Below, piece after piece: positions 2,444-58,560 of a stretch of 64,000 bases of DNA. The position numbers and the translations under genes were made by a program. The DNA comes from Octopus vulgaris (Eukaryota), in the NCBI GenBank assembly GCA_951406725.2, contig OX597826.1, positions 37,262,001-37,326,000 of the forward strand. Reading direction: 5' to 3'. Each line of letters begins with the position of its first letter. The first letter of the stretch is position 1. A model generated the notes under the pieces. That model had not been told where the DNA came from, did not search any database, and worked only from the letters and a program-made list of their open reading frames with translations.

Positions 2444-2553
2444 AACGTAAAAGACTTGTTTTATTTATATTCCTGACCGCCATACTAATACAATTGTTTG
2501 TTTGTACTCCACCTGCCTTCGTCCTTTGTTTATTTTCATAAAGCTTCCCGTTA
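2444..2553 (+). mobile_element. 5'-truncated copy of the short hammerhead-bearing family D, between (TA)n tracts
   Basis: AACGTAAAAGAC...TTCCTGA...ATACTAATACA...CCACCTGCCTTCGTC aligns to the reverse complement of 9718-9815. Confidence 0.75.
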
Positions 2554-2604
2554 TATATATATATATATATGGGGAGAATGTTAGTAGTAATTTAGTTGGC
2601 GGAC

Positions 2605-2662
2605 TTTGGCTGATGAGAAATCAGGCACCTATTTGGCGCTAAATTTCGAAACCGGTACCAGG
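2605..2662 (+). ncRNA. Type I hammerhead ribozyme with canonical core (Penelope-like pseudo-LTR type)
   Basis: Stem I TTTGG/CCAGG; CTGATGA 2610-2616; stem II GAAAT...ATTTC; GAAA 2648-2651; palindromic stem III ACCGGT; cleavage triplet GUA ending at 2657. Confidence 0.8.
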
Positions 2663-3401
2663 TTGACAAGCATTTACTTGAGGTAAGACATTATTATTGT
2701 TAACTGATATTTTTTCCTATCTTATCTGTAATGGATTTGTGACTATACGGTGGTACAGGTGTATTTTGTGACTTCTATCATTAGCGATATAGGTACTCAT
2801 GTAGTACCCTTGTGTATATATGTAGATATCTAACATTTTATGTATATATTTTCTTAATTTGCCAGTACGGCTGATAATTCGCTTACTACTAGTGATGGAG
2901 TTTTAATTATACCATCCCTATATATATATATATATATATATATATATATACATACACACACACACACACACTCACATATATATATATATATATATATATA
3001 TATATATATATATATATATATATGTACATACATACACACATATTTACTTACATACTTGCTGCTGAATGTTGAACATGAGATGAAATCATCTGATAGAATA
3101 CAAAAGTTGTTAAGAACTTCGAACAGCCGATATACAAGTCTACTTCTTAATGTGCTTGGTTTCTTCTTTTTTCATGACACAGTATACGAGCAATTACTGA
3201 AAGTATTTCTTAAACCAGATACACATTGTTGTATGTTAAAGGTGTATAAATTTAAAATCATTTCACAACTTTGAATGAAATAGCAAGGGGAGAATTTAGA
3301 AGAAAAGAAAAATCTGGCAAAACCAAAATAAAAAAAAGACAAACGTGAAAAAAAAAGTGAGAACAGAGAACAACGTCTATCTTGTTCCATATTCTTGTTA
3401 G

Positions 3402-3531
3402 TGATATCCTGCCCTTTGCTGACGGCAAAGATGTATATAACAGTATCATTAAATGATGTTCAGCTTTTAGATTTTATTAATAAATTGGTTCCGAACTGTG
3501 CACCACTATTAAATTCAGATATTGGTAAATG
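3402..3531 (+). CDS. Weak candidate internal exon (ISCPLLTAKMYITVSLNDVQLLDFINKLVPNCAPLLNSDIGK)
   Basis: Pyrimidine-rich acceptor ttcttgttag, one open frame, donor TG|GTAAGA (alternative TG|GTAAAT at 3524). No recognised homology. Confidence 0.2.
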
Positions 3532-3939
3532 GTAAGAATTCGAATGCCTGGGAGAGAAGACATATTGAAAGGCTTATTAGGAGACATAGTAATCACGATA
3601 TTTTCTTTCTCTGCAGCTGCAAACAACTACACATAACATGGCACACATGAATATATATATATATATATATAAAACACACACACACATACATATCATGGTA
3701 TACGTACAAACACACATCGTAGCATACAACGCATACAGACACACATACACACACACACCCGTATATTTATGACTGTGTGTTTGTGTGTGTCTGTGTGTCA
3801 GTGTGTGTGTTGTGTGTCTAAGTGCGTGTGTTGCACACAAGAGTACACAAGAGTACATCAGCCAGAAAATAAACATAGCGACACCTTTTTAACAATCTGC
3901 TCTTTTAAATCAAACGCACACTTTATCAATGAGATGTTG

Positions 3940-4372
3940 ATGATTATCAACCTCCTCATCACCTTTATCATCATGATTATCACCATCGTCCTTATCACCA
4001 TCGAAATCGTCATCATCAATATGATCGCCATCATCATCATCCTCATCATCATCAAAAGCAGCAGCAGCCTCACCACCGTCATCCCGATCCTAATCATTAT
4101 CATTATCGTCATCATCATCAGCAGCAGCAGCAGTAGCATTCTCATTATCATCGGCATCTTTATTATAATTATCATGACCATCATCCTAGTCATATCATCA
4201 TCATCAACAACAGCAGCAGCAGCATAGTCATCATCATCATCATCATCATCATCATCATTATGACGATCGCCATCAAAAGTATCATCCTCGTCACCATCAC
4301 AGTCATTATCACATCATCATCATCATTGTCTTAATCACTATCGTCATAAACATCTTCATCATCATCATCATT
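3940..4372. repeat. Degenerate (ATC)n/(AGC)n trinucleotide tract
   Basis: Directly visible; explains the Ile/Met/Ser-rich ORFs 3769-4227 and 3858-4193. Confidence 0.9.
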
Positions 4373-55947: not shown

Positions 55948-56690
55948 CAGCTGTTGGACAAGATATTTAAAACACCTTAAAATTTCAAACAAATTTATTT
56001 TAATATGGGGTAGGACCGCTTTTTCCAATAATTACAGCTTGAATTTTACGAGGTATGGAAACGTACAAAGTTTGAATTGTTTCTAAAGGACTTTTGTTCC
56101 ATTCTTCACCTAAAAGGTTTCCAGTTCTTGCAGTGATGATGGTGGAGGATATCAACTCCTTACATGTTTTTCTAAAATGCATCATAAATGTTCGATAATA
56201 CTGCGATCTGGGGACTGTGGTGGCCAGATAGGATGTTTAACTTCACTAGAATGTTCCTCGTGCCATTCAGTAACAAATTTAGCTGTGTGAATTAATGCAT
56301 TATCATCCTGAAAGATTGCGTTTCCCTCCGGAAACTGTTCCGCAACCATAGGACTAACTTGATCACATAAAATGCCTAAATTGTCTTGAGTATTAATTCT
56401 GCCATGAAGGAAAACCATTAGGCTGGCGGATTTCCAAGATATAGCCCCCCACCCCAGATCATCACAGATCCTCCTCCATGTTTAACAGTTGGAAGAAAAC
56501 AGTCTGGGCCAAATGCTTCTTTTGGATGTCTCCACACGTATACTCAGCCAGTGGTCGGAAATAAGGTAAAGGATGACTTATCCGAGAAAATAACATTCTT
56601 CCACACCTCTAGGGACCAGTTTTGTAGATTTTACTCCACTCTAAACGCTTGCTTTTGGAGGTATGGGTTTTCTGATTGCAGCACCATTAA
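55948..56690 (-). mobile_element. 5'-truncated Tc1-like transposon with DD36E spacing
   Basis: WKNVIFSDKSS, KHGGGSVMIW, FQDDNA...WPPQSPDRSIIEHL, ...AVIIGKSGPTPY*. Terminus TA|CAG at 55946-55950. Confidence 0.88.
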
Positions 56691-57150
56691 AAGTGATGGT
56701 CGGTGACAAATACAAACACACAAACACACAAACACAGATGGTTGAAACGGGCTACTGAAAAAATACTAAAAGGGCCTCACGTTGTGAATAGGTTCCAAAT
56801 TCTAGATTAAAACCATAAACAAACTTTCTTCCTTCGCCAACGCAATACACGGGAAATATAAATACAAATAACTGTCCATAAACTACAAAGCAGATTCACA
56901 CATCTACATACATATATTTGCACGTGTATATTATATATATATAATATTTGTAAGCAAAGCCGATGCCTTTGTAAGTCACAGAGAAAGAGCGACTATGAAA
57001 GTCTCTTATGCAATATTTGAATGAATTTGAAGGGTGACCGTGTTGGCCCAATCCGATACGCAAGGAGTCGTGTAAGAGTTAATTTGTGTATTCGATTCTG
57101 ACCTGCGTTAGCTCATCATTTTTAAGTTTCACTTTAAATCGGAGTATATA

Positions 57151-57231
57151 TTAATATTATGATATATTATATAGTCGTTAATATTATGATATATTATATA
57201 GTCGTTAATATTATGATATATTATATAGTCG
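57151..57231. repeat. Three perfect tandem copies of a 27-bp unit
   Basis: (TTAATATTATGATATATTATATAGTCG)x3. Confidence 0.95.
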
Positions 57232-57499
57232 TGTGTGTGTGTGTGTGTGTGTATTGTCTGTCTTTTCAAAAATGTCGCAAGAATACCACCCTTAGCTCGT
57301 ACTTTATTAATCGACGACGAGCGGAATAATAGTAGGCATGACCTCAACCTGACTGAAACTCACAGTAGAGAGAGAGAGAGGGGGGAGAGAGAGAACATGT
57401 ACTGCAAGGTATTCTACTTGATTCCCAAGAAGTCCGGAATTCGATGCGCTTAAATGCGACATATATTACTGAAAGTATTATATAGATTTCTTCCTTTAG

Positions 57500-57627
57500 G
57501 ATGATAAGTCCATCATGCCCTGGCAAAGAATATATCCAGAATTGGATATTGCATTTGTAATATCCGCTTACCAGACGCTTGTTCACAGTTACAGATATCA
57601 TCACAATAGAGTTTATACTGAATTTAG
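57500..57627 (+). CDS. Candidate internal coding exon DDKSIMPWQRIYPELDIAFVISAYQTLVHSYRYHHNRVYTEF; resembles the N-terminal WQ...FVxSAY motif of glycosyltransferase family 92 (DUF23/galt-1-like) proteins
   Basis: Acceptor tttcttcctttag, donor TAG|GTAATT, only phase 0 open. The family resemblance is from motif recall. Confidence 0.5.
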
Positions 57628-58413
57628 GTAATTGCTTTCGTTTTTTTTTTTGGGGGGGGGGGTATATGAAGAGTGTCAAGACGATAATTCTTGAAAATAT
57701 TCTAGTTCGAATAAGAAAGTATTTCGGTCTGTAACAAACAGCAGAAATATAATTTTAAAACATTGTCTAAAATAGTATAAATCCCTATCATCCTGTCCCA
57801 AACTGTCAAATCTCTACCAGCACGCGACATTGGAAAGCATTCAGCATTAGCAGATTGTCAAGTAAGCATTTCTAATAAGAAGTCAGATCCCGAAGCTTAA
57901 AACCTTTGACAAAATAGTTTATGCCTCTTAGAATATTTGCATCAAACAGCAGTAAAACTTGCTCTTGGCTCTCAACTACATTATTTTACCTTGTTTTATT
58001 GCAATTTTGGGACTGGATTTACAATGATCTAATGTTGAGCAACTTCTACGTTTGTTAACCCTGCTTTAATGATAGTGCCATGTTGCCAGATTTAGCAGCA
58101 AGTAACGAAATTATACATTATAAAGCTGTGAAATAATGTTCCAATTTAAGAAAACAATTTCCTTAGCTCTTACACCAACTTATTTATTTATTTCTAACTC
58201 GAAATCAATATTGTGTTGGCTTTAAATACAGATTCTATAAAAACATACATTCATACTACATATTGCTTAGGAAGGGATGCAATAAACTTGAAATTAGCGT
58301 TATTTGGTGCAGCACATGTATGAATTTACACATATAAACACACAAACATGCACGCGCGCTTGCATTTACGTGTTTGCGTGTATATGTGTACATATATATA
58401 TATATATATATAA

Positions 58414-58560
58414 AGAGAAAGTTTACGAAAAAAACAAAAGACGAAGACGGGTGGTGTACAAAACAAACAGATGTATTAGTAAAGCGCTCAGGAATAGAAA
58501 AAGTAATTTACGTTTCGAGCCTACGCTCTTCTACAGAAAGGTACACAGAAAAAACATATA
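58414..58560 (-). mobile_element. Family D element copy
   Basis: GTTTACGAAAAAAACAAAAGACGAAGACGGGTGGTGTAC...TTTACGTTTCGAGCCTACGCTCTTCTACAGAAAG. Confidence 0.88.

What the first reader, a model, noticed from the sequence alone, without database searches (positions are those of the whole stretch)
2444..58560. Overall system: several unrelated families of ORF-less, hammerhead-bearing mini-elements living in microsatellites
Seen: in 64 kb there are at least three sequence-unrelated families with recognisable hammerhead folds (2605, 9805/46241/58506, 20634). Further decayed cores lie at 4629, 21797/21991, 37948 and 44840. Almost all directly abut (TA)n/(TG)n tracts, and a Penelope RT fragment is present at 31100. 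Known: PLE-associated hammerheads and non-LTR retrozymes are described in several metazoans. Inference: if this density is genome-wide, the genome holds a very large, diverse and mostly unannotated ribozyme-retroposon population. Copies in sense orientation within introns could cut host pre-mRNA.
Basis: partly seen in the sequence, partly recalled or inferred. Interest (0 to 1): 0.7.

Follow-up and report, generated by a model that had tools for sequence, protein, structure and literature searches.

The report
Penelope-type hammerhead elements in TA repeats
This animal genome carries an estimated tens of thousands of hammerhead-ribozyme motifs sitting next to TA microsatellites; the commonest family is the tail of a known kind of jumping gene (Penelope-like), and two others are short protein-free repeats likely copied by the same enzymes, with self-cutting untested.

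Summary
The hammerheads are real but mostly of known kinds. The window has one fully canonical type I motif (2610; 0.025 expected). A 600-kb sample from 28 contigs has 10 intact motifs against 0-1 in shuffles, roughly 20,000-85,000 genome-wide. Families A (9805/46241/58506, also 2444), B (2605) and C (20634) are unrelated in sequence.

A is not a mini-element. It is the 3' tail of a Neptune-clade Penelope-like element (PLE), found downstream of a GIY-YIG ORF in 27 of 30 loci, and its core has U instead of A at position 6. B (445 nt) and C (about 475 nt) are ORF-less units joined end to start, forming arrays up to 2.5 units with two preferred 3' ends and inverted arms: retrozyme-type PLE passengers.

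3' ends abut (TA)n in 20 of 27 copies (background 3%). Sites 21797 and 37948 are decayed hammerheads; 21991 and 44840 are not supported; 4629 is a half motif. The fragment at 31100 is a Hydra-type PLE. Stem III needs a dimer, so lone intronic copies should cut poorly. Cleavage, circles and the intron test remain untested. This scan noted the same phenomenon on other DNA.

The parts
2444..2547 (+). Family A sister-subfamily copy (Neptune PLE 3' end), 5'-truncated 6 nt before the predicted cut site; lacks the first half of the core; (TA)n on both sides
2571..2918 (+). Family B monomer (0.8 of a 445-nt ORF-less unit) with the only fully canonical hammerhead of the window (core at 2610, palindromic stem III); 3' end at the main fixed end, followed by (TA)n
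4629..4665 (-). 3' half of a hammerhead-like motif only; 5' core missing; weak support
9713..9906 (-). Family A copy: 3' pLTR end of a Neptune-clade PLE; minimal hammerhead at 9838 with U at core position 6 and an extra A before stem II
20606..20908 (+). Family C monomer (0.6 of a ~475-nt ORF-less unit); 34-nt palindrome 20606-20639 (short inverted 5' arm); hammerhead core at 20640 with broken stem II closing pair; ends at the +286 fixed end in (TA)n
21722..21875 (+). Decayed copy of hammerhead family D (5' core remnant at 21722, 3' half at 21797)
31079..32095 (+). Broken RT/thumb and linker fragment of a Hydra-type PLE
37940..38100 (+). Decayed hammerhead of an old, low-copy family E (core at 37948, palindromic stem III, stems I and II broken)
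44661..44931 (+). Family F: 3' end of a (TA)n-inserted repeat with an inverted arm (44661-44746); no hammerhead in this copy
46176..46306 (-). Family A copy with an internal deletion; stems I and II damaged
58414..58552 (-). Family A copy; stem I damaged

Best explanation
The window holds hammerhead-bearing 3' ends of Penelope-like retroelements (family A, joined to a Neptune endonuclease ORF elsewhere in the genome) and short ORF-less hammerhead repeats (families B and C) that were likely pasted into (TA)n tracts by the reverse transcriptase/endonuclease of Penelope-like elements, most likely the Hydra clade. Shown: the motifs, copy dispersal, the A-to-ORF link, the closed end-to-start units of B and C, the fixed 3' ends against (TA)n, random 5' truncation and inverted arms. 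Inferred: the GIY-YIG endonuclease nicks (TA)n; the RT primes at one of two fixed internal sites of the RNA and copies a variable length, running past the unit junction in B and C because the template is a multimer or circle; a second priming event gives the inverted arm. Predicted: the ribozymes cut only as dimers in tandem transcripts, so most genomic monomers are inert passengers.
For: A: upstream sequence runs through a C/T-rich 3' UTR into a GIY-YIG ORF end. 27 of 30 endonuclease loci (one is the query locus) have A downstream on the same strand, and the 826-aa frame in L283 has DKG and the CxxxxCxxC linker. B: 9 of 30 loci run upstream into the unit's own 3' end; 38 of the 40 best matches to the junction span it; arrays reach 2.48 units; one dimer has two complete hammerheads about 443 nt apart. 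C: 10 of 30 loci cross the junction upstream and one more downstream. Longest Met-ORFs are 37 and 52 aa, and no PLE ORF is contiguous with B or C. C ends at about +286 in 15 and about +200 in 10 of 30 loci; 9 of 15 inverted arms use the other end. B shows the same alternation in 4 of 9. Autonomous Hydra-type copies show two ends about 68 nt apart (three loci) and carry hammerheads of the same long-stem-II, palindromic-stem-III design in their flanks. 3' ends lie within 15 nt of (TA)5+ in 20 of 27 copies, 5' ends in 7 of 27, background 3.2%. Stem III segments are self-complementary and have no hairpin energy. The literature describes these same traits (PMC4209133, PMC8557442, PMC11167929).
Against: No autonomous PLE sharing sequence with B or C was found among the 80 Hydra-type and 30 Neptune loci examined, so the choice of Hydra as the motor rests on architecture and end pattern only. 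A B-like hammerhead behind the Hydra ORF in L137 turned out to be a separate insertion. Loci for B and C were chosen as best matches to the query, and the junction search is biased towards junction-bearing copies. MFE folds of the isolated motifs do not adopt the active fold (stem I probability 0-0.10 for A-D), and within-family covariation is thin (one compensatory stem I change in 2 of 31 B copies). 5' ends of family A show no peak at the cut site (1 of 49 within 3 nt).
Confidence: 0.8

Rival explanations
1. B and C are also just remnants of autonomous PLEs (solo or rearranged pLTRs) whose short tandems arose locally by template jumping or unequal crossing-over, with no ORF-less RNA template of their own.
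For: Most copies are monomers shorter than one unit. Family A looked the same until long copies were examined. Only a small sample of the genome's PLE loci was read.
Against: The same end-to-start junction recurs at 84-97% identity on at least 16 contigs, and every long upstream extension goes into the unit's own tail, never into an ORF.
Confidence: 0.1
2. One reading: the dispersed copies are active ribozymes that cut host pre-mRNA when in sense orientation in introns, shaping the transcriptome and being selected against there.
For: An estimated 20,000-85,000 intact motifs. Retrozymes are under-represented in genic regions in Xenopus (bioRxiv 10.64898/2026.07.22.740005).
Against: Stem III needs a partner. 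Single minimal PLE hammerheads showed no cleavage in vitro (PMC4209133), and 8 of 9 Xenopus dimers did not cleave. Only 1 of the 6 A/B/C copies in the window is canonical. Family A has U6 in 89 of 91 copies, and changes at position 6 lower Mg-dependent activity (PMC7151607; A6C, not U). No host exon was identified in the window.
Confidence: 0.12
3. B and C are LINE-mobilised SINE-like elements that merely carry a hammerhead, and the (TA)n tracts grew afterwards from their AT-rich ends.
For: The fixed 3' ends fall at TA-rich patches of the units, and microsatellites are everywhere (about 16% of the window masked).
Against: Partial tandems, inverted 5' arms and two alternative 3' ends are PLE signatures (PMC8557442). 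There is no poly(A) tail, and (TA)n often lies on both sides.
Confidence: 0.06

Closest known systems
Minimal hammerheads in pLTRs of Penelope-like elements (Cervera & de la Pena 2014, PMC4209133; parts 1-2 of 4 read)
   Same: Type I fold, short palindromic helix III, extra nucleotide between 9 and 10.1 (family A), many sequence-unrelated families per genome, mostly single truncated copies, and close pairs on opposite strands.
   Different: Estimated numbers here (tens of thousands) exceed the 2,000-9,000 per genome they list. Family A has U at position 6, which is not mentioned in the parts read.
Neptune-clade and Hydra-clade PLEs (Craig et al. 2021, PMC8557442; passages, section 11 and File S1 rows read, including Hydra-1_Obim of Octopus bimaculoides with (TA)n preference)
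   Same: Neptune: DKG motif and CX2-5CxxC linker before GIY-YIG (L283). Hydra: RWR/RWK, DKT and CxCX5C motifs (L121, L129), hammerheads and (TA)n targets. Partial tandems, inverted 5' copies and optional tail.
   Different: The two ends here are about 65-90 nt apart rather than 30-40 nt. Clade assignment here is by motifs, not by a tree.
Metazoan non-LTR retrozymes (Cervera & de la Pena 2020, PMC7229834, passages; Li, Clavereau & Pollet 2026, bioRxiv 10.64898/2026.07.22.740005, parts 1-3 of 5)
   Same: Non-coding units of a few hundred bases with one type I hammerhead each, low GC (35% and 32%), occurring as monomers and short tandems, and proposed to be non-autonomous PLE derivatives.
   Different: B and C are mostly dispersed sub-unit or 1-2.5-unit copies with PLE-type ends rather than long satellites. 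Circular RNA and cleavage are not shown. Neither text, as far as read, covers cephalopods.
Poseidon PLE of Anolis, in vitro mechanism (Frangieh et al. 2024, PMC11167929; parts 1-2 of 4)
   Same: AT-rich target nicking, two adjacent internal RT start sites that define genomic ends, and a hammerhead not needed for insertion.
   Different: Different clade, no microsatellite target reported, and non-autonomous templates not tested.

Membership tests
Type I hammerhead ribozyme | CUGANGA ... GAAA ... UH core with stems I, II, III | tested here: met
   B at 2610; core intact in 27 of 31 B and 28 of 31 C motif copies; D in genomic copies
Type I hammerhead ribozyme | A at core position 6 (family A) | tested here: not met
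   U in 89 of 91 copies; the rest of the fold is conserved
Type I hammerhead ribozyme | Compensatory changes in stems | tested here: inconclusive
   One two-sided stem I change in 2 of 31 B copies; copies too alike; the architecture recurs across unrelated families
Type I hammerhead ribozyme | Self-cleavage | not testable with these tools
   No bench data; no 5'-end peak at the cut site for A
Neptune-clade PLE (family A) | RT plus C-terminal GIY-YIG ORF upstream of the hammerhead repeat | tested here: met
   27 of 30 loci; Pfam GIY-YIG E=0.0012, below the curated cut-off
Neptune-clade PLE (family A) | CX2-5CxxC linker and DKG motif | tested here: met
   L283 and L159 translations
Neptune-clade PLE (family A) | Placement in RT phylogeny | not tested
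   No reference sequences on hand
Hydra-clade PLE (31100 fragment) | Homology to RT with RWK/DKT motifs and CxCX5C linker | tested here: met
   tblastn E 1e-15 to Hydra-type ORFs, none to the Neptune ORF; the motifs themselves are seen in the relatives, not in the broken fragment
Non-LTR retrozyme (B, C) | Non-coding unit of a few hundred nt with one type I hammerhead | tested here: met
   445 and ~475 nt; longest Met-ORF 37 and 52 aa
Non-LTR retrozyme (B, C) | At least two consecutive hammerhead-bearing units in tandem | tested here: met
   B: L056 dimer with two complete motifs, 2.48 units in L380; C: two cores in L081; rare among loci
Non-LTR retrozyme (B, C) | Unit-length linear and circular RNA in cells | not testable with these tools
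   No holder on record as RNA; contigs only
Non-LTR retrozyme (B, C) | Sequence relation to the pLTR of an autonomous PLE | tested here: inconclusive
   None found in 110 PLE loci examined; a small sample of a 2.8-Gb genome
Non-LTR retrozyme (family A) | ORF-less tandem unit | tested here: not met
   Continues into a GIY-YIG ORF

The most novel reading that the evidence does not exclude
The genome hosts a community of protein-free RNA circles (B, C and kin) that cut and close themselves as dimers and are written into (TA)n by Hydra-type PLE enzymes from two fixed priming sites, while the most successful autonomous family has spread to tens of thousands of copies with a U6 core. Together these would give a natural test of whether the hammerhead matters to the passenger but not to the carrier.
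Probability: 0.35. Interest if true: 0.62.

Novelty: new member of a known kind. Interest (0 to 1): 0.4.

Why it matters
The role of hammerheads in PLEs and the motor that moves animal retrozymes are open questions (PMC8557442; bioRxiv 10.64898/2026.07.22.740005). Here carrier and passengers sit side by side with readable end signatures, so the question becomes testable with defined RNAs. A recent Octopus vulgaris repeat annotation never mentions ribozymes in its main text (PMC13282606). The kinds of element are known, so the gain is new cephalopod-type members, a scale estimate, and a fixed U6 core variant in a very abundant family.

Tried and rejected
Rfam scans gave only 5S rRNA at gathering score; the 150 listed of 409 E-value matches were almost all microsatellite-driven miRNA matches. 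RF00163 in the genome gave 6 matches among 73 scored, so Rfam misses these folds. The repeat finder was swamped by microsatellites. The first idea that A is a 190-nt mini-element was rejected. A B-like hammerhead after the Hydra ORF in L137 was rejected as a parent link, because the element's own hammerhead lies upstream and the B-like one follows a (TA)n tract and was absent from the other 29 loci. RT or endonuclease fragments near B in L058 and L056 are separate insertions. No pile-up of family A 5' ends at the cut site. The 200 kb next to the window had 0 intact motifs, so density is patchy. No RNA holder was listed for family C; contigs of four runs cover it in pieces and one guessed-RNA contig joins end to start, which also exists in DNA, so this is no evidence either way. 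The intron-strand test was not possible: 53 ORFs gave only a DDE transposase and one weak hit. Alignment A1 included one mis-oriented row and was not used. Lunse et al. 2017 was not held; it or its supplements may already list U6 or octopus variants.
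Full report
Setting. The window is G000:C13:37262001-37326000 in a 2.8-Gb assembly of 227 contigs. It is AT-rich and dense in microsatellites (about 16% masked). An octopus genome is my inference from size and repeat content; no call names the organism.

Noticed in passing
window 127-245 (-): Single full-length 5S rRNA copy, Rfam 100 bits, followed by a T-rich stretch on its strand; gene or retrocopy not determined.
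   Followed up: no
L026, L269 and 89 other family A copies; window 9838 (-): The most abundant hammerhead family has U fixed at core position 6 across subfamilies that differ at position 7, while a sister family keeps A6.
   Followed up: partly
L125, L129, L130 (Hydra pLTR); L287, L299, L312, L314, L315; sister family: Several PLE families carry C instead of U at core position 4 with intact stems, a second recurrent core variant.
   Followed up: no
L121:2545-4710, L122, L123; L283: Long uninterrupted PLE frames (Hydra-type 680-722 aa; Neptune-type 826 aa), so both clades were active recently.
   Followed up: partly
window 2682-2692 and family B; family C upstream of the core: 5' splice-site-like motifs lie just after the B hammerhead and just before the C hammerhead; PLEs are known to keep introns in their pLTRs (recalled, and mentioned in PMC4209133).
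   Followed up: no
window 44661-44931; L348-L361: Family F: a 1,733-candidate repeat with a fixed 3' end at (TA)n and inverted arms but no hammerhead within the stretch read; perhaps another PLE passenger.
   Followed up: partly
window 16236-16614, 20362-20550, 21059-21445, 47305-47662, 49877-50210, 55501-55918, 29378-29533, 63039-63164: Many copies of SINE-like repeats; the C copy at 20606 sits right after one of them.
   Followed up: no
window 56000-56706 (-), 28132-28680, 35053-35685: DNA transposon remnants: DDE_3 hit at 56185-56481; inverted ends at 35053-35234 and 35511-35685.
   Followed up: no
window 1123-1608, 32311-32778, 32911-33386; 15058-15445, 23278-23465, 51740-52121, 63508-63844: Two further dispersed repeat families of 400-500 nt, the first ending in (AAT)n.
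   Followed up: no
L171-L176: Further hammerhead families elsewhere in the genome that pass the RF00163 cut-off, some with very long stem II.
   Followed up: no
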